Positions 42,846 through 50,530 of a stretch of 64,000 bases of DNA are shown one piece after another. Both the position numbers and the translations under genes were made by a program. The notes beneath the pieces were generated by a model. The model was not told where the DNA came from. It searched no databases and saw only the letters and a program-made list of their open reading frames with translations. Within the stretch, counting starts at the first letter, position 1, and every line of letters starts with the position of its first letter. Origin of the DNA: a virus. The stretch is taken from UHGV virus genome UHGV-0026213. One strand, 5' to 3'.

Positions 42846-43373
42846 ATGGCATATCGTGTCGATTTAACGAAAGCACCTAAACAAATTTTAGTAGACCGGA
42901 TTAACTACGTATTTAGTCTATCCTATACTGCTGATAACATCGAGTTTAACGCAAACGGCGTTCAACCACTAACTTTAGCAGAACGTCAACGTTACGGACT
43001 AGAATCAAAGGTTGCTGCCGTCTTCCGTAACGGCGTTGTCGGTAACCAGGAATTCATTTTAACTCGCGTTGATTTGGCAACGTTCCTGGCCGATGAACCG
43101 GTGAGTGTACCGAAAGGCGCAGTAACGTCCAGCGAGGAGTTGGCTGATTATATCGTTGCGCAAACAGGGATTGACCTGCGTGCCGACGACATTATGATTG
43201 AGCCGATTTCAGAGGAGCTGGATTCTTATGATGTTCGTCTCGTCCCGAATCATTTGTCTTTTAAAGGAACGATTCCGGTCGTATTTACTGATTCCACCCC
43301 ACGCAAATTGGCGTCTCTTGTGACGAAATTAGCGTTGGATGGGTTCCGCCCAGGAGAATTAATCAATGTCTAA
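42846..43373 (+). CDS. hypothetical protein
   Basis: 175-codon ORF; overlaps next gene start. Confidence 0.5.
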   Translation: MAYRVDLTKAPKQILVDRINYVFSLSYTADNIEFNANGVQPLTLAERQRYGLESKVAAVFRNGVVGNQEFILTRVDLATFLADEPVSVPKGAVTSSEELADYIVAQTGIDLRADDIMIEPISEELDSYDVRLVPNHLSFKGTIPVVFTDSTPRKLASLVTKLALDGFRPGELINV

Positions 43374-44253
43374 TGTCAAAGTTTACGACGGTAAACTCTC
43401 GACGGTAACGCTTAATGCGATGCGTTTGGCTACCGCATTAATTACCGGTGCTGACGTGCAATACCCGCAAAAATCCACACTGAATGAGTTCTATAAACTC
43501 ATGCAAACACCAGTGCCGGACGGTAAAGCGCGTCCTCATTTGCAGTACATGGCAATTGGCAACCGTGGCCATATGGTCGACACCTCTGATGTGGTGGCTG
43601 ACGTTGTGCCTGTAGGTAAAGAACCTATTGCTTCCGGGATGTTTTCCCGCGTTCCGTTTGTCCTGCGTACAAAAGACAATGATCTGTCTGACGAACAACG
43701 TAAGAACTACGCTTTTCGTACTTTGGAAACGTTTAACAAACGCGAATACTGGGCGTATTATTTAAAACGCATCGACATGCGCGCTGTAAAAACCACCGAT
43801 TACGATATCAGGCGTGAGAACGGTGTTGAGACCGTCGAAGACTTTGTGTACACAGACACGGAATTAAACCCCGTACCGAAAGTATTGCCGGACTACGATT
43901 ACGACGACGATGGCACCGTTGCAATCCCAGATGGCCGTTATGTGGAGTCAGGTGCTGACCTGGTTATTCCGTGGACAGACTTTGATGTTCAGGAATATAT
44001 GAACGTAACGAGCATTATGCGTGGTAGCCCGCGTAGTTCAATTATCTCTGAACTGGCACTCTGCTCAGGGTTAGACCAGGTCGCGTCCGGGGATTCTGCA
44101 ACTGGGTCTAAATTCAGCTATAACGAGGCGATCGGTGTTCAGGCGTTGTACTATATTTCGATGTTTACCAACCTGGCACAGACGAATGACAAATTGTCTT
44201 TGACCATTCGTATCGGACAGCCTGCACCGTTCTTCCTGGGGACAGCTAACTGA
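43366..44253 (+). CDS. hypothetical protein
   Basis: 295-codon ORF; coupled to downstream gene. Confidence 0.5.
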   Translation: MSNVKVYDGKLSTVTLNAMRLATALITGADVQYPQKSTLNEFYKLMQTPVPDGKARPHLQYMAIGNRGHMVDTSDVVADVVPVGKEPIASGMFSRVPFVLRTKDNDLSDEQRKNYAFRTLETFNKREYWAYYLKRIDMRAVKTTDYDIRRENGVETVEDFVYTDTELNPVPKVLPDYDYDDDGTVAIPDGRYVESGADLVIPWTDFDVQEYMNVTSIMRGSPRSSIISELALCSGLDQVASGDSATGSKFSYNEAIGVQALYYISMFTNLAQTNDKLSLTIRIGQPAPFFLGTAN

Positions 44254-44897
44254 TGTTGATACCCGAGCCGAGACTTCCAGATAAGATGGTAAGAATCGCG
44301 GCAATAGACCCCGGTACGAGCCATCTTGGTATGGCAGTATTGGATTGGGAATACGGCAGCGATCAAGCCGAAGTGGTTTGGGCTGATACCATGCATGTAT
44401 TAGACCCAACGCATCCAAATGCGTTTGCAGAGTGTGTCGGTAAACGTGACGATCGTTTAGTTAAGCTCGAAGCTTGTTACCGTGAATTTCTTCGGATTGC
44501 CTGCCCAACTTTCGTTGCAACAGAGACACCGTTTATGCGGAGAGCAAAACTCTCCGCTTATGAATCTGGTGTCGAACTACAATTAATGTTGCGACGTACT
44601 TTGTGGGACGTTTACCCGGAGAAAATTTTACACGGCTTCAATCCTATCATTGTAAAATCATTCGTTGGGTTGGAAGCGAAGGGGACGGATAAAACCGATA
44701 TGTTTCGGGCCGTGACCAAGCTCTATCGCGAACATGCTTTGTTTGATATTACAACGTTAGATGAGCACAGTATTGATGCTGTGGCGGTGGGAAATATTTT
44801 CGTCAGGGTAAATCTGTTAAACTTAAACAGCCTGCTACCGCCTAAACAAAAGTCGACTAAGACCTCCAGGCGGAGAAGGCGTCGGAGAAAACGATAA
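44253..44897 (+). CDS. RuvC-like Holliday junction resolvase (RNase H fold) with poly-arginine C-terminal tail
   Basis: IAAIDPGTSHLGMAV, ATETPF and DAVAVG match RuvC catalytic motifs at RuvC-like spacing; C-terminus SRRRRRRRKR; alternative start at 44286. Confidence 0.65.
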   Translation: MLIPEPRLPDKMVRIAAIDPGTSHLGMAVLDWEYGSDQAEVVWADTMHVLDPTHPNAFAECVGKRDDRLVKLEACYREFLRIACPTFVATETPFMRRAKLSAYESGVELQLMLRRTLWDVYPEKILHGFNPIIVKSFVGLEAKGTDKTDMFRAVTKLYREHALFDITTLDEHSIDAVAVGNIFVRVNLLNLNSLLPPKQKSTKTSRRRRRRRKR

Positions 44898-45475
44898 TGG
44901 AACCGAGCACACAAGCACTACCCACTGAAATACTTGACTTATTGATCCAAGCTGGAAACAGAAAGTTAAGTAAAGAACAGTCTGAACAGTTAACGAAACT
45001 CTTGAAAGCGGCGTATGGGGATGACGTCGACGTTGACGTTACCCGTTCGGGAACAAAGATTCTTTCCGACCTACGCCCGACGCTAATCGATAACTTAGGC
45101 AAAATATCAGAACAATTCCATCAGCAGGCAACTGACGCTGTGGAATCTCTAGGGGATGAGATTAGCAAAGAAACCATGCTAACCTTATGGCCGAAATTAT
45201 CCGCTCCCCAGAAGTTCATTATTGCCCTCCTGACGTTAGCGACGGTTGTTGTAACCGGTTTCCTGGGTTATGACACGCATCAACATTTTCCAGAAGACAG
45301 TTTAGATGTTCTGATTGTGACGTTGGTACCGTTCTTTGCGTTGGTTGTTTTTGCGACTTGGCCGATTAAAACGTTGGCTTATAAGTCTCTTGAGATAGCC
45401 ACAAAAGTTGTTGAGAAGAAGCTTGAGAAATCAGGCCAGCTTAAGTCGAAGACAGAAAGCCCAACAACGAAATAA
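44897..45475 (+). CDS. hypothetical membrane protein (two predicted TM helices)
   Basis: Hydrophobic segments FIIALLTLATVVVTGFLGY and VLIVTLVPFFALVVFATWPI. Confidence 0.5.
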   Translation: MEPSTQALPTEILDLLIQAGNRKLSKEQSEQLTKLLKAAYGDDVDVDVTRSGTKILSDLRPTLIDNLGKISEQFHQQATDAVESLGDEISKETMLTLWPKLSAPQKFIIALLTLATVVVTGFLGYDTHQHFPEDSLDVLIVTLVPFFALVVFATWPIKTLAYKSLEIATKVVEKKLEKSGQLKSKTESPTTK

Positions 45476-45480
45476 TCCTA

Positions 45481-45518
45481 ACCTCTACCTTCGGGTAGAG
45501 GTTACTTCTTTTTATTTT
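45481..45518 (+). terminator. intrinsic terminator (UUCG loop)
   Basis: ACCTCTACC-TTCG-GGTAGAGGT then T-run. Confidence 0.7.
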
Positions 45519-45564
45519 TACAATTTTTAAACATACTGTGAGACTTAAAAGAAGGAGTGCTATT

Positions 45565-46218
45565 GTGGAACCATTACGCTTAATGACCAGAACGTTACTG
45601 ATACCTATTCAGGACCTGAAGGTTGGACCGTTGGTCACCTCTAATGGGGAAATTGTTGATTTCGTTAAAGAGGAAAAAATTCTTACGGCGGCTTTTCAAG
45701 AGACGCTTCATCGCTATTATCGCGCAGTACCTTTATCCGGCAGTTTAGATTGTCCGGGTGTGGAGGGGAGTACGTCTGCGTTAATAGCGGAGCATTTAGA
45801 AAAGAAAGGGTTTGGGGTCGGGAAAGGACAGGTTTTTGTAGACACTGCCACACTGAACAAATACCAAAACGACCTAATGTTACAGATAAGGAGATTGCTT
45901 GCCCGTTATGGTCTTTTCTCGATTAATTGTAAGTTTGACGACGTTCGGATGTTAGACCACGGTTTTACTACCACCCTTAAAATCTGTCGTGGTAAAAGAT
46001 TCATACAGTTTACCTGGTGGGTGCCGTCCCTACGTGGTGAGAGAAAAACGGTGGAAGGGTTGTATGGTTGGGCTTTATGGAGCGAAGTTCCAGTAACGAA
46101 GCTCGATGCGATTATTCCACAGCATCGAAACGTTCCACTTAGCAGTTTATTTACTTCTGGTGGGAACACCACGTGGGATGAATTTGTTAAAAACGTTTTA
46201 TCGATAGGGGAACAATAA
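45565..46218 (+). CDS. hypothetical protein
   Basis: Probable GTG start after RBS AAGGAG. Confidence 0.45.
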   Translation: MEPLRLMTRTLLIPIQDLKVGPLVTSNGEIVDFVKEEKILTAAFQETLHRYYRAVPLSGSLDCPGVEGSTSALIAEHLEKKGFGVGKGQVFVDTATLNKYQNDLMLQIRRLLARYGLFSINCKFDDVRMLDHGFTTTLKICRGKRFIQFTWWVPSLRGERKTVEGLYGWALWSEVPVTKLDAIIPQHRNVPLSSLFTSGGNTTWDEFVKNVLSIGEQ

Positions 46219-46694
46219 TGCAGCAGTTAGATATTACCGAAGACAAAATTTCCGCTAAATTTCCTGAATTACGTGAATACGTCAAAGACTTAAATTCGAT
46301 TCGAGAAACGCCAGTCAGAATCACGTTGGCTGTTGAAGACGATATTACACATGGGGTTGCAATCTGGGAGCCGGGGAATCTTATCTATCTGGTAGTGGCC
46401 GAAGGTTCTCGTCGTAGCGGTGTAGGTTCCTTTTTACTGAAATACGTTCAACTTAATTCAGATCGTCAAATGGTGATGTGTCGTGTCCATCCCTCAAACA
46501 TAGACGGGCTGTGTTTCTTTTCCAAAAAAGGCTTCCAAATAGACCGATGGTTTATTGCCAGTGACTCCCGTCGGTATTTTCGTATGACGAACAGTAACGT
46601 TGATTCGTCATACGCCCCGCCGGAAGAAGGATATTTGGTGGATTTTATTGAAAACACCCCCATCTTTCTCTCTGTTGCGGATAAGATTTATTAG
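46218..46694 (+). CDS. GNAT-like acetyltransferase domain protein (tentative)
   Basis: Motif VAEGSRRSGVGSFLL resembles GNAT motif A. Confidence 0.4.
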   Translation: MQQLDITEDKISAKFPELREYVKDLNSIRETPVRITLAVEDDITHGVAIWEPGNLIYLVVAEGSRRSGVGSFLLKYVQLNSDRQMVMCRVHPSNIDGLCFFSKKGFQIDRWFIASDSRRYFRMTNSNVDSSYAPPEEGYLVDFIENTPIFLSVADKIY

Positions 46695-46713
46695 AAACAG
46701 TTGAGAGCCCAAA

Positions 46714-47190
46714 ATGATTCGTGTCGAATATGAGACGCGGTGCTTGGAAGGCAATAAAGCAAAAGTGTTACGTTGCGTTGAAGTTATCCCCGCACACGAG
46801 GTTGATTTACGTACAGGCCGTGTTCGGGGAGTTCCTGTAACGATACTACAACATAATCCTTGTTCGCAATTTAAAGAGAAGGCAACTCCAGCAGTACGTT
46901 CTCGTCGTCGAGAGGACTTTTCTGATCTCCGCAAATCTTTTACACGGCACTACCGACGCAGTAAATGGAAAGTGTTGGTATTAATTTTAGTGGATGATTT
47001 TATTAAAGACTTGGTTTGGGAGGAGGTGCTAAAAGAGCGCGGTTTTACACCCAAACCTTTCTCGTATCACTGGGAACGTTTCAAAAAGAAATATCGTGAA
47101 GCGCTATGGTTTTCGCCGAACACACGGAATATGATTCCGCGCTTAGAGTCGATGCCATGGCTACGCGATCATCTTGATGAGGTAGACTGA
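46714..47190 (+). CDS. hypothetical basic protein
   Basis: 158-codon ORF; stop overlaps next start. Confidence 0.5.
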   Translation: MIRVEYETRCLEGNKAKVLRCVEVIPAHEVDLRTGRVRGVPVTILQHNPCSQFKEKATPAVRSRRREDFSDLRKSFTRHYRRSKWKVLVLILVDDFIKDLVWEEVLKERGFTPKPFSYHWERFKKKYREALWFSPNTRNMIPRLESMPWLRDHLDEVD

Positions 47191-47582
47191 TGAAACGAAC
47201 TGTCATTACCCTATTTCTAACGCTACTTTCATTTTCCGCGTTCGCGGAATTTAAACCGCACGATATTAGTCGTTTTGAACCTACAGTGCCGGGCGATAAA
47301 CCCGTCGTTTTTAAATCTACCGACCAGCCAGTTGTTGCAGTTCAAAACGATGAGTTCGCCACGGTAAATTACGGTAAAACCGAATTGTGCCCGGCAGGCG
47401 GCTACTATTTGGTAAACATCAAACGGCGTACATATCAGTTTGTTGATCCGGGTAGTTGTTCTGCCAGTGTAAAGGTAACGTTAGAAACTGTACCCTACGC
47501 AAATAAAAGTATTAATGTTCAACGTTTAACTTTCTATGTTGGTGATGAGATCACCGCACGGTACCCATTATACGGGTATTAG
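47190..47582 (+). CDS. secreted/periplasmic protein with signal peptide
   Basis: N-terminus MKRTVITLFLTLLSFSAFA-EF: basic n-region, hydrophobic core, AxA cleavage site. Confidence 0.55.
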   Translation: MKRTVITLFLTLLSFSAFAEFKPHDISRFEPTVPGDKPVVFKSTDQPVVAVQNDEFATVNYGKTELCPAGGYYLVNIKRRTYQFVDPGSCSASVKVTLETVPYANKSINVQRLTFYVGDEITARYPLYGY

Positions 47583-47605
47583 TGATTAACCCCCGCGGAG
47601 TTTGT

Positions 47606-48244
47606 ATGTCTTTTGTAATTGATTTTGAAGTTGGTCATAGACAGAACTTACTCAACCTCGTTAGTTACTGTAATAGCGGCAGTGTACGTAAAAAGCTTTC
47701 GGCTGAGAAAGTGGATGTTTCTTTAATAGGCGCACCCACACCGGAAGGTCGGTATCGAGTAAAGTTAACTAACCGCAATGATATTAACGACGCGGTGATG
47801 ATATCTTACACGAAACTTCAATTGAATGACTTTCTTGATATTCCCGGTAAGTATCTGGATTGGTTCGATTTCGAAAACGGCCAACCTAAAAATTACGATA
47901 AATGGGCAGAGTCCGCGAAAGTGTCGGTGGAGAAGATGTGTCAAGACCGTGGTATGGTTTTGTCGCGTGCATGGGACACGGGCTCGCAGTGTCACGTTGA
48001 GTATGATGAGGATCTCGAGCGCTATGTGGTAATTTACGAATGTGATTCGTTTATTTATAGCGCACGAAATCGATTTATTCTACCGCTTCATATTGGGCAA
48101 ATTATTACGAATAAAACCCTTGACGGACTTAATTACAACAACGAACTGAATAAACGTCCTTTAGGGGGCTTAGATGGTGAGTTGGACGTCTGGATGGGCA
48201 AAGCGTTACTCGAGACTGTCGTTTTAAGTGGTTTAGAAGCGTGA
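47606..48244 (+). CDS. hypothetical protein
   Basis: ATG after RBS-like CGGAG; terminator at 48258. Confidence 0.45.
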   Translation: MSFVIDFEVGHRQNLLNLVSYCNSGSVRKKLSAEKVDVSLIGAPTPEGRYRVKLTNRNDINDAVMISYTKLQLNDFLDIPGKYLDWFDFENGQPKNYDKWAESAKVSVEKMCQDRGMVLSRAWDTGSQCHVEYDEDLERYVVIYECDSFIYSARNRFILPLHIGQIITNKTLDGLNYNNELNKRPLGGLDGELDVWMGKALLETVVLSGLEA

Positions 48245-48257
48245 TAACATCACCGAT

Positions 48258-48301
48258 AGGAGAGAACCCTGAAAAGGTTCTCTCCTGCTTTCTTTTTTTT
48301 C
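48258..48301 (+). terminator. intrinsic terminator
   Basis: AGGAGAGAACC/GGTTCTCTCCT stem then T-run. Confidence 0.7.
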
Positions 48302-48330
48302 ACTTCACAACTTCAGTATGGAGGTGACAA

Positions 48331-48879
48331 ATGTATAAAATTGCTATTATTGGTTCTCGAGAAACGCCCGAAGACACGATGCAAGAAATGTTGGATGTGT
48401 TGCAACGTGGGTTCAAAATTCTTCGTAATAAACAGCACAGTATCGAAACGCGGTCAGGCGGTTGTTACAAAGGACCAGACCAATTACAGTTTATGTTAGC
48501 ACGTACTGAACCAGGACCACATATTTGTTATTTGCCTGACGAACGTAAGTTGTGGTTACGTAAGTTACATCCGAATGTGGATTTTCGCGTTATTCCACAA
48601 GACGTCCGTTATCGTGGGATTGTGGCATCGCTTCACCCTAATCCTGATAAGCTATCGGAAATAGCTTGGGTGTTGCATGGACGAAACTTAAATATTGTAT
48701 CAGGTGATTCTTTGGACGATCATGTAGACGCCGTCTATTATTACGCTGAGCATGATAAAAAGGGAAATCCAAAAGGGGGTACGGCGATGGGTGTCCGCTA
48801 CGCACAGTCACTGAACATCCCTTGTTATTATCATGTTACGGATGCATCTAAGTGGTTAGAAGACCTACGCTTATTATGA
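48331..48879 (+). CDS. DprA/SLOG-like Rossmann-fold protein (tentative)
   Basis: N-terminal IAIIGSRE and downstream SGG..G.D resemble DprA/Smf-type nucleotide-binding fold. Confidence 0.35.
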   Translation: MYKIAIIGSRETPEDTMQEMLDVLQRGFKILRNKQHSIETRSGGCYKGPDQLQFMLARTEPGPHICYLPDERKLWLRKLHPNVDFRVIPQDVRYRGIVASLHPNPDKLSEIAWVLHGRNLNIVSGDSLDDHVDAVYYYAEHDKKGNPKGGTAMGVRYAQSLNIPCYYHVTDASKWLEDLRLL

Positions 48880-48929
48880 AGTTAGTCAGGGCGGGCTTCT
48901 CCCCGCTTTAGCTTAAAATGGGGTAAAGG

Positions 48930-50063
48930 ATGTCAACATTAGATTCCGATTTAGAAGTCCTTTGCGATGACTACGATCGTTTGGTCGCGTTAGAATCGCT
49001 TAATGTTAAAGACAATTATCCGGCGGTTGTCGCTATCCGAAAACGGTGGGCTTTAGATGATGTCCACGTTGCGTTGGAGTCTGCAGCGATGATGGAACGC
49101 GCGCAATTTGTTGCGGACACCGAGCCTTACGCAGGGGTAGGTAAAGCGGTCGCACGCGCGACCGGCAGAGCGGTTAAGGGAGTTGGACGCGTTGCTGGAA
49201 AAGCAGCAGTGGCAGGAGCCAAAGCGTCTGGAAAATTCGCAGGTAAACATTCTAAGCAATTGGCCTTACGTTTTATCGACTTCGCGGAAGCCGCCGGTAA
49301 AGAAGTTATTAATGAACTGAAAGAAGCGACGTCCAAAGCATCGTCGTTAGAACGCAAGCTACAGAAGTTAGAAGCACGTTTAAGTTTACTTGGTATCAAG
49401 GACACCTTAAAACCGGTTGACTGTGACACAGGAAGTTGGACAACAAAAGTTTGTTTAGAAGACAAGCCTAACGTAAAAGCATGTATTGAGTTCAGTAAGA
49501 ACCTGAGCGCAATGGATGCGATGGTCAACGAGTATACTGTTAAAACACGTACGTTAATCGGTAAGAGCAAGAAAGTTACCGAGAGCGGTTTGGAGAAAGT
49601 GGGCCGGTCAACGAACTGGGCGATTAAACGAAGCGCAGGACTGTTCGGTATTATCGATCCGTTTAAAACGGTGAAAGCATATCCGTGGCCAGGTAACGTG
49701 GTGGTCGTTGAACACAACAACGGTAAGATTGAGTGGGCGATTGCTCGCGACGGTGATTTTGGCCACACAATCAAATCTCTGAACTTGCACGAAATCGGTT
49801 CAGCACTCGACGCCGTTAGAAACATTATCCGAGCGTTACGTCAGCGTGGTGCGAAACGACGTAGTGTAGGGTATACAGGAATTTATGACGAAATTCAGCG
49901 TATGCGTAAGGAACTTAAGTCGCTTGAAGGGCGGGAGTTACGCGACGCTACCGTACGTTATAAAAACGCACTGCGTTTAGAAGATGCGTTTACTACCTCG
50001 TTAGTGCGCGTTGCGGAAGGGTTACTGGAGTGGTGCAGGTTGTCACTGATTGAGGTTAAATAA
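48930..50063 (+). CDS. hypothetical protein (377 aa)
   Basis: RBS AAAGGA; Ala/Gly/Lys-rich N-terminal region. Confidence 0.5.
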   Translation: MSTLDSDLEVLCDDYDRLVALESLNVKDNYPAVVAIRKRWALDDVHVALESAAMMERAQFVADTEPYAGVGKAVARATGRAVKGVGRVAGKAAVAGAKASGKFAGKHSKQLALRFIDFAEAAGKEVINELKEATSKASSLERKLQKLEARLSLLGIKDTLKPVDCDTGSWTTKVCLEDKPNVKACIEFSKNLSAMDAMVNEYTVKTRTLIGKSKKVTESGLEKVGRSTNWAIKRSAGLFGIIDPFKTVKAYPWPGNVVVVEHNNGKIEWAIARDGDFGHTIKSLNLHEIGSALDAVRNIIRALRQRGAKRRSVGYTGIYDEIQRMRKELKSLEGRELRDATVRYKNALRLEDAFTTSLVRVAEGLLEWCRLSLIEVK

Positions 50064-50530
50064 TGCGTATCACTATTATTCTCAAACCCGACAGTAAATA
50101 CGGAAAGTTATACGGCGACCAGGTACTCAAACTGCACAACATGTTGTTCGCAGAAGAGAAAGTGCGTATTAGTCAGTTAACCGGACGCGACACGTTCAAC
50201 CCCATCGAACACTTAGAAGAGATCTGGCCTCAAGATTATCTCTGTGCGTGTGCGGTGGATGATAACGAACAACTTTTGGGATTTATGACCTTTTCAATAG
50301 GTTCTTGCCAGAAGGACACGTTTGTTTATATTGGGAACTACTATGTGATTCCTGAAGCACGTTCTCAAGGGGTAGGCCGTGCGCTTATGGACAAAGTTCG
50401 TGAATACGGAAAGTCCAAAGGTTGTGGTTGGATGAGTTTGGATGTGCTGGACAACAACGTTAAAGCTATCTCCTTGTATGAGAAAATGGGATTCCGTACC
50501 GAATGCAGGGAAATGATAAAGGAAATCTAA
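50063..50530 (+). CDS. GNAT family N-acetyltransferase
   Basis: Motif A VIPEARSQGVGRALM and downstream AISLYEKMGF. Confidence 0.55.
   Translation: MRITIILKPDSKYGKLYGDQVLKLHNMLFAEEKVRISQLTGRDTFNPIEHLEEIWPQDYLCACAVDDNEQLLGFMTFSIGSCQKDTFVYIGNYYVIPEARSQGVGRALMDKVREYGKSKGCGWMSLDVLDNNVKAISLYEKMGFRTECREMIKEI

What the first reader, a model, noticed from the sequence alone, without database searches (positions are those of the whole stretch)
44253..48879. Putative recombination/DNA-processing module: RuvC-like resolvase with poly-Arg tail, GNAT-like protein, secreted protein and DprA/SLOG-like protein in one coupled operon
The RuvC-like protein has the catalytic motif set (IDPGT, ATE, DAVAVG) and an unusual C-terminal SRRRRRRRKR tail that may add nucleic-acid binding. 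In the same overlapping-gene operon lie a two-TM membrane protein, a GNAT-like protein, a signal-peptide protein and a protein with a DprA-like IAIIGSR Rossmann signature. A resolvase alongside a DprA-like mediator suggests a phage recombination or genome-processing unit.
Basis: partly seen in the sequence, partly recalled or inferred. Interest (0 to 1): 0.5.

Follow-up and report, generated by a model that had tools for sequence, protein, structure and literature searches.

The report
Known jumbo-phage genes, not one module
The interval holds eight conserved genes of a Salmonella-type giant phage, including a real RuvC-type DNA junction-cutting enzyme and a small DprA-like protein, but they lie in separate transcription units, are already annotated in close relatives, and do not form a dedicated recombination operon.

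Summary
The sequence observations hold. 44253-44897 encodes a RuvC-fold nuclease with an intact D19/E91/H172/D175 catalytic set and an Arg/Lys tail. 48331-48879 encodes a single-domain SLOG protein closest to DprA. Between them lie a two-TM protein, a GNAT, a signal-peptide protein and three unmentioned ORFs.

The window is an SPN3US/Asesino-like nucleus-forming jumbo phage, and the block is the syntenic counterpart of SPN3US gp85-gp92. Relatives already carry the RuvC-like, DprA-like and acetyltransferase labels, and the GNAT orthologue has a crystal structure (7DQG).

The "one coupled recombination operon" reading is not supported:
- Two strong hairpin/T-run terminators (45479-45504, 48257-48287), conserved in position in SPN3US and Asesino, split the block into at least three units.
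- The RuvC gene is translationally coupled to the upstream virion gene (gp84-like). That pairing, not RuvC+SLOG, is what persists in distant chimalliviruses.
- In Eowyn and PS119XW no SLOG gene was found within 20 kb of RuvC.
- The genes between RuvC and SLOG turn over in deeper relatives.

The basic tail is a lineage-wide trait, not peculiar to this phage. Most likely the RuvC-like enzyme debranches replicated DNA before packaging, and the SLOG protein acts independently. Interest is low.

The parts
43366..44253 (+). gp84-like virion structural protein (DUF7208; per the Moabite record's note on its homologue, related to phiKZ gp139). Its stop codon overlaps the RuvC-like start (ATGA).
   Evidence: Pfam DUF7208 on the identical gene of a near-identical contig. 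Homologues sit next to the RuvC-like gene in PS119XW, Moabite and FishSpeaker.
44253..44897 (+). RuvC-family Holliday-junction-resolvase-like nuclease (SPN3US gp85 orthologue), 214 aa. Catalytic candidates are D19 (44307-44309), E91 (44523-44525), H172 (44766-44768) and D175 (44775-44777).
   Evidence: PHROG159 E 3.9e-36. Invariant columns. Profile vs PDB RuvC E 9.4e-5 with catalytic positions aligned. AF2 pLDDT 88.9. Foldseek top 12 are bacterial RuvC, E 1e-9 to 6e-8.
44829..44894 (+). Disordered Arg/Lys-rich C-terminal tail of the RuvC-like protein (SLLPPKQKSTKTSRRRRRRRKR). Its last codons also contain the GGAG ribosome-binding site of the next gene.
   Evidence: 11-15 K/R in the last 22 residues of all 31 homologues, at most 2 acidic. 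pLDDT 51-57. Absent from PS119XW, Moabite and FishSpeaker RuvC-likes.
44897..45475 (+). 192-aa protein (SPN3US gp86 orthologue) with a soluble N-terminal domain, two C-terminal transmembrane helices and a charged C-terminus. Function unknown.
   Evidence: Hydropathy. PHROG8722 E 5e-69. Found only in 62 SPN3US-like phages, directly after the RuvC-like gene wherever both positions were listed.
45479..45504 (+). Intrinsic-terminator-like hairpin (11-bp stem, tetraloop) followed by a T-run. Ends the unit that contains the RuvC-like gene.
   Evidence: dG -17.6 kcal/mol, z -5.8, 0 of 200 shuffles fold as well. Counterparts at the same position but with different sequence in SPN3US and Asesino.
45565..46218 (+). 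gp87-like protein of unknown function. The likely start is GTG 45565 with an AAGGAG ribosome-binding site; the ORF tool gave 45538.
   Evidence: PHROG8034 E 5e-12. No Pfam, PDB or PADLOC match.
46218..46694 (+). GNAT-fold acetyltransferase-like protein (SPN3US gp88 orthologue). The acetyl-CoA motif is RRSGVG.
   Evidence: Pfam Acetyltransf_7 E 1.1e-4, 22.9 bits, below the cut-off of 27. PHROG7861 E 1.7e-70. The SPN3US orthologue is PDB 7DQG 'putative acetyltransferase'.
46714..47190 (+). gp89-like basic protein (pI 9.8). Function unknown.
   Evidence: PHROG9187 E 2e-64.
47190..47582 (+). 130-aa protein with an N-terminal Sec-type signal peptide (SPN3US gp90 orthologue). No lipobox. Function unknown.
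   Evidence: Sequence and hydropathy. PHROG5248 E 6e-38.
47606..48244 (+). gp91-like acidic protein of unknown function. The likely start is ATG 47606. It lies shortly upstream of the SLOG gene in deeper relatives too.
   Evidence: The PHROG10571 alignment starts at residue 9. Gene call on the near-identical contig. Found with the SLOG gene in L012-L014.
48257..48287 (+). Intrinsic-terminator-like hairpin (12-bp stem) followed by a T-run. Separates the middle genes from the SLOG gene.
   Evidence: dG -19.3 kcal/mol, z -4.2, 0 of 200 shuffles fold as well. Positional counterparts in SPN3US and Asesino.
48331..48879 (+). Single-domain SLOG-fold protein of the DprA clade (SPN3US gp92 orthologue), 182 aa. 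Motifs are GSR (8-10), SGGC-KGPDQ (42-51), HGRN (116-119) and GGT (149-151).
48888..48909 (+). Weak hairpin in the 50-nt gap after the SLOG gene. Not significant on its own.
   Evidence: dG -11.7 kcal/mol, z -1.9, 9 of 200 shuffles fold as well. Sequence.

Best explanation
The interval is an ordinary, conserved stretch of an SPN3US/Asesino-like nucleus-forming jumbo phage (Chimalliviridae). Its eight co-directional genes fall into at least three transcription units and are not a dedicated recombination operon.

Unit 1 continues the portal-adjacent virion gene block (gp82-, gp83-, gp84-like) and ends with the RuvC-like gene and a two-TM protein gene.

Shown: the RuvC-like protein has the bacterial RuvC fold and a complete D-E-H-D metal-binding set.

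Inferred: it acts as a dimeric structure-specific endonuclease that cuts Holliday junctions and other branches in replicated concatemeric phage DNA, so that headful packaging can proceed. This is the role endonuclease VII plays in T4. It would be made together with late virion proteins. Its lineage-specific disordered Arg/Lys tail most likely adds non-specific electrostatic DNA affinity.

Unit 2 holds a GNAT acetyltransferase, a secreted protein and three proteins of unknown function.

Unit 3 is the SLOG gene on its own.

Shown: it is a minimal DprA-clade Rossmann/SLOG domain that keeps the GSR / SGG-x-G-x-D / RN / GGT pocket.

Inferred: it binds single-stranded DNA, or a phosphate-bearing nucleotide ligand, through that pocket. 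It may assist the phage recombinase, which is encoded elsewhere, and it acts independently of the RuvC-like enzyme.
For: Identity and synteny:
- Gene order is fully syntenic with SPN3US gp82-gp95 and Asesino gp98-gp111.
- SPN3US gp81 is the portal (PMC5694885).

RuvC-like protein:
- PHROG159 E 4e-36.
- D19, E91, H172 and D175 are invariant in 31 homologues.
- Profile vs PDB RuvC E 9.4e-5, with all four positions aligned to T. thermophilus and D. radiodurans RuvC.
- AF2 pLDDT 88.9; Foldseek top 12 are bacterial RuvC with target TM 0.73-0.79.

Transcription units:
- Hairpin/T-run terminators at 45479-45504 and 48257-48287 fold at -17.6 and -19.3 kcal/mol, and 0 of 200 shuffles fold as well.
- Hairpins with different sequences occupy the same gaps in SPN3US and Asesino.

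Linkage:
- The RuvC start overlaps the gp84-like stop.
- gp84-like homologues flank RuvC-like in PS119XW, Moabite, FishSpeaker and Eowyn, and no other block gene is present there.
- No SLOG-profile hit lies within 20 kb of RuvC in Eowyn or PS119XW, although each phage has a structural relative in BFVD.
- The genes between RuvC and SLOG are replaced in metagenomic relatives L012 and L013.

Literature: Iyer et al. [quoted passage not shown]
Against: - Throughout the tail-bearing RuvC lineage (RuvC-like 40-99% identical), wherever the contig reaches far enough, a SLOG gene stays 3.4-6.3 kb downstream of RuvC. Some selective linkage therefore cannot be excluded.
- Terminator function with the phage's own RNA polymerases is inferred, not shown, and read-through could still co-express the units.
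- No biochemical data exist for either protein.
- Neither protein reaches the curated Pfam or NCBIfam thresholds for RuvC or DprA by itself.
- Late timing of unit 1 is inferred from its neighbours only.
Confidence: 0.72

Rival explanations
1. One reading: the RuvC-like resolvase, the DprA-like mediator and the genes between them form one functional recombination or genome-processing module that is co-expressed and works together.
For: - Both end genes belong to DNA-recombination-related families.
- They stay within 3.4-6.3 kb of each other in SPN3US-like phages and in three deeper metagenomic relatives.
- Several junctions are 1-nt overlaps.
Against: - Two strong, positionally conserved terminators lie between them.
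- The intervening genes (membrane protein, GNAT, secreted protein) have no recombination signature, and most of them are not detectable in L012 and L013.
- RuvC is linked to virion genes across the family.
- No SLOG gene lies within 20 kb of RuvC in Eowyn or PS119XW.
- There is no recombinase in the window.
- In the matching SPN3US region, DNA-metabolism genes (DNA polymerase, DnaB-like helicase, thymidylate kinase, DNA methyltransferase) are scattered among structural genes. Two such genes about 4 kb apart is therefore not surprising.
Confidence: 0.12
2. The SLOG protein is not a DprA-type ssDNA-binding mediator. It would instead be a nucleotide- or ADP-ribose-centred factor, for example one that binds or processes NAD-derived signals or ADP-ribosylated DNA, acting in counter-defence or DNA-damage reversal.
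For: - The family (2,268 representatives at E<=1e-3) also occurs as a domain in proteins of 1,000-4,400 aa.
- It is fused to NADAR (2 of 17 multidomain relatives scanned), a 2OG-Fe(II) oxygenase, DUF4326 and an SF1 helicase.
- Some relatives hit LDcluster4 or YAcAr rather than DprA.
- Iyer et al. 2021 predict NAD/ADP-ribose roles for phage SLOG, DUF4326 and NADAR combinations.
Against: - The best structural and profile matches are consistently DprA.
- The fusion partners (helicase, AlkB-like oxygenase, NADAR) fit a DNA-bound context just as well.
- There is no PADLOC or anti-defence match.
- The protein is standalone here, so the fusion evidence is indirect.
Confidence: 0.22
3. The Arg/Lys tail of the RuvC-like protein is a by-product of nucleotide-level selection for a purine-rich ribosome-binding region for the overlapping downstream gene, not a functional part of the protein.
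For: The last tail codons (CGG AGA AAA CGA TAA TG) contain the GGAG ribosome-binding site and abut the start of the two-TM gene. Both the tail and the two-TM gene were found in the SPN3US-like clade.
Against: - The tail is kept in homologues whose downstream gene is different (L011, L012) or starts 169 nt away (L013).
- It spans about 20 residues, far more than a ribosome-binding site needs.
- Its composition is conserved while its sequence varies.
Confidence: 0.07

Closest known systems
SPN3US gp85-gp92 and Asesino gp101-gp108 (Seoulvirus / Erskinevirus jumbo phages)
   Same: Same genes in the same order, including the terminator-like hairpins in the same gaps. The RuvC-like protein is about 80% identical and the SLOG protein about 58-62%. 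Relatives already carry the labels RuvC-like Holliday junction resolvase, DprA-like DNA recombination-mediator protein and acetyltransferase.
   Different: No nucleotide-level (megablast) match, so this is a distinct phage. The window lacks the small SPN3US gp93 gene between the SLOG gene and the internal head protein gene.
Bacterial RuvC (E. coli 1HJR, T. thermophilus 4LD0/6S16, D. radiodurans 7W8D)
   Same: RNase-H-like fold, with a D/E/H/D catalytic set at aligned positions.
   Different: About 20% identity. It carries a roughly 45-residue extension that includes a basic disordered tail. No RuvA or RuvB was seen among its neighbours. It falls below the Pfam and NCBIfam RuvC thresholds.
Viral RuvC-type resolvases (Lactococcus phage bIL67 RuvC 4KTW; fowlpox/canarypox resolvase 6P7B/5E6F)
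   Same: Stand-alone viral RuvC-fold resolvases working without RuvAB. They match structurally at E 3e-5 to 2e-4.
   Different: They are structurally more distant from this protein than bacterial RuvC is.
T4 gp49 endonuclease VII (functional analogue, from general knowledge)
   Same: The proposed role is the same: removing branches from replicated concatemers so that headful packaging can finish.
   Different: Unrelated fold. Iyer et al. note a nearly complementary distribution of endo VII and RuvC in jumbo phages.
DprA/Smf (H. pylori 4LJK, S. pneumoniae 3UQZ, R. palustris 3MAJ)
   Same: The SLOG/Rossmann core is the best structural match. The GSR and SGxxxGxD motifs align, and further family-invariant RN and GGT motifs resemble DprA's from general knowledge.
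   Different: Only the core domain is present: 182 aa, with no SAM or C-terminal winged-helix domain. There is no direct Pfam PF02481 hit. It is a phage protein with no competence context.
Other SLOG proteins: ShosA (8ZVA), YpsA (2NX2), LOG enzymes, YAcAr/DUF2493, RAY gp153
   Different: Lower scores than DprA. RAY gp153 is a 293-aa protein, only remotely related (hhalign probability 69%), and lies near UvsX rather than RuvC.
PDB 7DQG, 'putative acetyltransferase'
   Same: Its sequence is the SPN3US orthologue of the 46218-46694 protein (profile E 1.5e-89; the SPN3US orthologue is 59% identical to the window protein).
   Different: The substrate is unknown. No paper on it was found in the held library.

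Membership tests
RuvC Holliday junction resolvase | RNase-H-like fold with RuvC topology | tested here: met
   AF2 model pLDDT 88.9, pTM 0.85. Foldseek top 12 hits are all bacterial RuvC, E 1.3e-9 to 5.9e-8, target TM 0.73-0.79.
RuvC Holliday junction resolvase | Four metal-binding catalytic residues (D, E, D/H, D) at the canonical positions | tested here: met
   D19, E91, H172 and D175 are invariant in 31 homologues. They align with the IDPG Asp, the AVEE/AIED Glu and the H..D of T. thermophilus and D. radiodurans RuvC.
RuvC Holliday junction resolvase | Passes the curated family model (Pfam PF02075 or NCBIfam RuvC) | tested here: not met
   No PF02075 hit at E<=1. NCBIfam NF000711 scores 13.6 bits against a cut-off of 163. 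Only profile-level (E 9.4e-5) and PHROG159 support.
RuvC Holliday junction resolvase | Homodimer that makes symmetric cuts in four-way junctions | not testable with these tools
   Needs biochemistry or a multimer model.
DprA/Smf recombination mediator | SLOG/Rossmann core with DprA as nearest structure | tested here: met
DprA/Smf recombination mediator | Conserved motif set GSR / SGxxxGxD / RN / (S,G)G(S,T) | tested here: met
   G8, R10, G43, G48, D50, R118, N119, G149, G150 and T151 are invariant in a 40-member family alignment. The first two motifs align to H. pylori DprA. Equating the RN and GGT motifs with DprA's rests on general knowledge of DprA, not on an alignment made here.
DprA/Smf recombination mediator | Passes Pfam PF02481 (DNA_processg_A) | tested here: not met
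   No hit for this protein or its 21 close homologues. Reached only through relatives: 23 of 40 more distant family members hit PF02481, best E 3.3e-8.
DprA/Smf recombination mediator | Accessory SAM (N-terminal) and/or winged-helix DML1 (C-terminal) domains | tested here: not met
   The 182 aa are fully taken up by the SLOG domain. These domains are variable even among true DprA proteins (general knowledge).
DprA/Smf recombination mediator | ssDNA binding and loading of a RecA-family recombinase; association with a recombinase gene | tested here: inconclusive
   Biochemistry is not testable here. No UvsX/RecA homologue is in the 64-kb window; the rest of the genome was not seen.
GNAT acetyltransferase | GNAT fold with the acetyl-CoA motif A (R/Q-x-x-G-x-G/A) | tested here: met
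   RRSGVG at residues 65-70, with R65, R66, G68 and V69 invariant. The SPN3US orthologue is crystal structure 7DQG. Other GNAT structures hit at E 2e-4 to 0.1. hhalign to the neighbouring true GNAT gives probability 83%.
GNAT acetyltransferase | Passes the curated Pfam GNAT model | tested here: not met
   Acetyltransf_7 scores 22.9 bits against a cut-off of 27 for this sequence. Orthologues carry precomputed PF13508/PF00583 hits.
Single co-transcribed, functionally coherent operon | No internal terminators; genes transcribed as one unit | tested here: not met
   Strong hairpin/T-run sites at 45479-45504 and 48257-48287, conserved in position in SPN3US and Asesino. Their function is inferred, not measured.
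Single co-transcribed, functionally coherent operon | Gene content and linkage conserved across relatives beyond general synteny | tested here: not met
   Most of the intervening genes are not detectable in L012 and L013. No SLOG gene lies within 20 kb of RuvC in Eowyn or PS119XW. The partner of RuvC conserved across the family is the gp84-like virion gene.

The most novel reading that the evidence does not exclude
The single-domain DprA-clade SLOG protein belongs to a large family that is not covered directly by a Pfam model and was never tested. It has over 2,000 representatives, both standalone in many phages and as a domain in giant multidomain proteins and in NADAR, DUF4326, AlkB-like and helicase fusions. 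Its real job could be to recognise ADP-ribosylated or otherwise damaged ssDNA, or NAD-derived nucleotides, as a counter-defence or repair factor rather than to load a recombinase. Separately, the lineage-specific poly-basic tail of the RuvC-like enzyme could act as a targeting or retention signal for the phage nucleus.
Probability: 0.18. Interest if true: 0.5.

Novelty: already known. Interest (0 to 1): 0.14.

Why it matters
It matters little beyond annotation. The work places this window in the SPN3US/Asesino group of nucleus-forming jumbo phages. It confirms that the RuvC-like and DprA-like labels used in relatives rest on fold and active-site evidence. It also shows that proximity and overlapping stop/start codons were over-read as an operon.

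Two small points may be useful to specialists:
- Across Chimalliviridae the RuvC-like resolvase gene travels with a portal-side virion gene, which fits a role in packaging.
- In one lineage the enzyme carries a conserved disordered Arg/Lys tail whose function nobody has tested.

The mini-DprA SLOG family is widespread in phages and uncharacterised, so it is a reasonable target for biochemistry. That was already implied by published comparative genomics.

Tried and rejected
- Megablast of the whole interval against phage records: no match.
- Single-sequence Pfam, NCBIfam and PDB searches gave no significant RuvC or DprA hit, so profiles and structure prediction were needed.
- The close-homologue SLOG profile found nothing significant in the PDB or in Pfam DprA. 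A broader alignment was required.
- PADLOC gave no defence-system match for any of the eight proteins.
- The five remaining ORFs, concatenated, had no PDB match.
- Sigma-70-type promoter matches were at chance level: 20 found against 18.3 expected.
- The TATGGAGG motif upstream of the SLOG start is conserved in window and Asesino, with a one-base variant (TATAGGAGG) in SPN3US. It is not enriched in the window: 2 matches against 0.96 expected. No promoter claim is made.
- The two-TM protein was compared with the architecturally similar protein downstream of FishSpeaker's RuvC-like gene: no sequence similarity.
- RAY gp153, the nucleus-localised 'DprA', is only remotely related (hhalign probability 69%) and has no tblastn hit in the window. 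Its localisation data cannot simply be transferred.
- Literature searches for SPN3US gp85, gp88 or gp92 and for 7DQG found no specific study.
- The afdb50 fold library was not available.
- The idea that the basic tail is only a by-product of the downstream ribosome-binding site was rejected, because the tail persists where the downstream gene differs or is 169 nt away.

Full report
What is there.
The interval 44253-48879 carries a run of + strand ORFs. All of them have orthologues, in the same order, in Salmonella phage SPN3US (gp85-gp92 in the original numbering) and Erwinia phage Asesino (gp101-gp108). No phage record matches at nucleotide level. At protein level the RuvC-like protein is about 80% identical to SPN3US-group proteins and the SLOG protein about 58-62%. 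The window is therefore a new relative of the Seoulvirus/Erskinevirus jumbo phages, which belong to the nucleus-forming Chimalliviridae. A near-identical 191-kb contig exists in a public run (Logan SRR29133897).

- IDPGT, ATE, DAVAVG and the ...SRRRRRRRKR end in the 214-aa protein
- two hydrophobic helices in the next protein
- a Sec-type signal peptide at 47190
- IAIIGSR at 48331

The interval holds eight genes, not five. Two ORF starts given by the mechanical ORF list are probably wrong; the likely starts are 45565 and 47606.

RuvC-like protein.
Single-sequence searches gave only weak RuvC hits. The following evidence settles the family:
- PHROG159 'RuvC-like Holliday junction resolvase' matches at E 3.9e-36.
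- A profile of 31 homologues hits only RuvC chains in the PDB at E<=1e-3, best E 9.4e-5.
- The AlphaFold model (pLDDT 88.9) has bacterial RuvC as its 12 best Foldseek matches, at E 1e-9 to 6e-8 and target TM 0.73-0.79. Poxvirus, phage bIL67, mitochondrial and RuvX resolvases follow at E 1e-5 to 1e-4.
- D19, E91, H172 and D175 are invariant in the family and align with the catalytic Asp, Glu, His and Asp of T. thermophilus and D. radiodurans RuvC.

The basic tail.
- It is present in all 31 homologues down to about 40% identity, with 11-15 Lys/Arg in the last 22 residues and at most 2 acidic residues.
- It is predicted disordered (pLDDT 51-57).
- It is encoded by mixed codons.
- It is absent from the RuvC-like proteins of PS119XW, Moabite and FishSpeaker.

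So it is a lineage trait, not a peculiarity of this phage. It persists where the downstream gene differs or lies 169 nt away, which argues against it being a mere by-product of the overlapping ribosome-binding site.

SLOG / DprA-like protein.
- PHROG768 'DprA-like DNA recombination-mediator protein' matches at E 4.5e-43.
- Neither the protein nor its close homologues hit Pfam DprA. A few touch YAcAr weakly.
- A search of 1.84 billion representatives found 2,268 relatives at E<=1e-3.
- Of 40 standalone relatives, 23 hit Pfam DprA (best E 3.3e-8), 9 hit LDcluster4 and 4 hit YAcAr.
- Their profile hits only DprA at E<=0.01 in the PDB: H. pylori 7e-5, S. pneumoniae 6e-4, R. palustris 1.6e-3.
- Family invariants are GSR, SGG-x-G-x-D, RN and GGT.

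It is therefore a minimal, single-domain member of the DprA clade of the SLOG superfamily, lacking the accessory domains. Relatives also occur inside proteins of 1,000-4,400 aa and fused to NADAR, a 2OG-Fe(II) oxygenase, DUF4326 and an SF1 helicase. This keeps open a nucleotide/ADP-ribose-centred role of the kind Iyer et al. discuss. RAY gp153, shown by Prichard et al. to enter the phage nucleus, is only a remote relative.

The other genes.
- The 46218-46694 protein is a GNAT. It has motif RRSGVG and sub-threshold Pfam hits, and its SPN3US orthologue is PDB entry 7DQG.
- The two-TM protein occurs only in the 62 SPN3US-like phages, directly after the RuvC-like gene wherever both positions were listed.
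- The remaining proteins match only PHROGs of unknown function. They have no Pfam, PDB or PADLOC match.

Is it one operon or module?
Four junctions are 1-nt ATGA overlaps. So is the junction between the upstream virion gene (gp84-like, 43366-44253) and the RuvC-like gene.

Two strong hairpins followed by T-runs sit in the only sizeable gaps, at 45479-45504 and 48257-48287. They fold at -17.6 and -19.3 kcal/mol, with z -5.8 and -4.2, and no shuffle of 200 folds as well. SPN3US and Asesino have hairpins of different sequence at the same places, plus one more after gp90. The block is therefore best read as at least three units:
- virion genes + RuvC-like + two-TM gene
- the five middle genes
- the SLOG gene alone

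Linkage tests.
- The gp84-like virion gene is next to, or one gene away from, the RuvC-like gene in PS119XW, Moabite, FishSpeaker and Eowyn. None of the other block genes is found there.
- The viral structure library holds structural relatives of the SLOG protein from Eowyn, PS119XW and 2050HW. Yet no SLOG-profile hit or matching annotation lies within 20 kb of RuvC-like in Eowyn or PS119XW.
- Within the tail-bearing lineage (RuvC-like 40-99% identical) the anchor order is kept: portal, gp82, gp84, RuvC, then 3.4-6.3 kb, then gp91-like, SLOG and the internal head protein. The genes between RuvC and SLOG are largely replaced in L012 and L013.
- No UvsX/RecA homologue is in the window.
- In the matching SPN3US region, replication and nucleotide-metabolism genes are scattered among structural genes. 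Two DNA-related genes 4 kb apart is not remarkable.

This is lineage-wide synteny of a larger block, not a conserved eight-gene module.

Most likely mechanism.
Shown: fold, catalytic set, family placement, synteny and hairpins.
Inferred:
- The RuvC-like enzyme is made with late virion proteins and resolves junctions and branches in replicated DNA so that headful packaging can proceed. This is the role endonuclease VII has in T4 (general knowledge).
- The basic tail adds non-specific DNA affinity.
- The SLOG protein binds ssDNA or a nucleotide ligand through its conserved pocket and acts independently, possibly with a recombinase encoded elsewhere.

Novelty.
The RuvC-like resolvase of group 1 jumbo phages and the DprA/Smf SLOG protein were described by Iyer et al. 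2021. Records of relatives already carry these names. The GNAT orthologue has a crystal structure. The finding is an essentially correct annotation combined with an over-reading of gene proximity, and its interest is low. Two things remain untested and mildly interesting: the function of the lineage-specific basic tail, and the true ligand of the mini-DprA SLOG family.

Noticed in passing
window 48879-48930: The window lacks a counterpart of the small SPN3US gp93 / Asesino gp109 gene (about 90 aa) between the SLOG gene and the internal head protein gene. Only a 50-nt gap with a weak hairpin remains.
   Followed up: partly
window 45538 and 47582: The first-possible-start ORF calls are probably too long. 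A GTG at 45565 preceded by AAGGAG, and an ATG at 47606, agree with the PHROG alignment and with gene calls on a near-identical contig. The apparent 1-nt overlap at 47582 is therefore not real.
   Followed up: yes
window 46218-46694; PDB 7DQG: The SPN3US orthologue of this GNAT-like protein has a deposited crystal structure ('putative acetyltransferase'). No associated paper was found in the held library, and the substrate is unknown.
   Followed up: partly
window 50063-50530, and SPN3US 95846-96844: A second, clear-cut GNAT (Pfam Acetyltransf_1 E 1e-19) follows the phiKZ-type internal head protein gene (48930-50063). SPN3US annotates a third GNAT a few kb further on. These phages carry several GNAT genes near head-protein genes.
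   Followed up: no
proteins P0127, P0128, P0140, P0152, P0161, P0210 (relatives of window 48331-48879): The SLOG family also occurs as a domain inside proteins of 1,000-4,400 aa. It is fused to NADAR, a 2OG-Fe(II) oxygenase, DUF4326, and DUF7831 plus an SF1 helicase. No Pfam model covers the SLOG part itself.
   Followed up: partly
L006 6569-7039 (FishSpeaker) and L004 6559-7053 (PS119XW): The gene after the RuvC-like gene is also a membrane protein in distant chimalliviruses. FishSpeaker has an acidic N-domain plus two C-terminal TM helices, the same layout as window 44897-45475 but with no sequence similarity. PS119XW has an annotated Rz-like spanin. A link between the RuvC neighbourhood and lysis or membrane genes is unexplained.
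   Followed up: partly
L012 6620-7168: In one metagenomic relative, the ORF directly after the SLOG gene gives a second, weak hit to the SLOG profile (E 1.6e-4). It may be a diverged paralogue.
   Followed up: no
L012, L013, L014 (relatives), and window 42846-43373: gp83-like proteins (Pfam DUF7941) are repeated two to three times along this block in relatives, including just upstream of the SLOG gene. This suggests a paralogous family of small virion-associated proteins.
   Followed up: no
whole window; proteins P0001, P0002, P0060: Proteins 94-99% identical occur in public sequencing runs and in Salmonella enterica assemblies (for example serovar Agona). The annotated phage collection holds nothing similar at nucleotide level. 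This is probably an undescribed Salmonella-infecting relative of SPN3US.
   Followed up: partly
window 45479-45504: The hairpin after the two-TM gene is also called as a terminator-like site on the - strand, with a weaker T-rich tail. All neighbouring genes are on the + strand.
   Followed up: no
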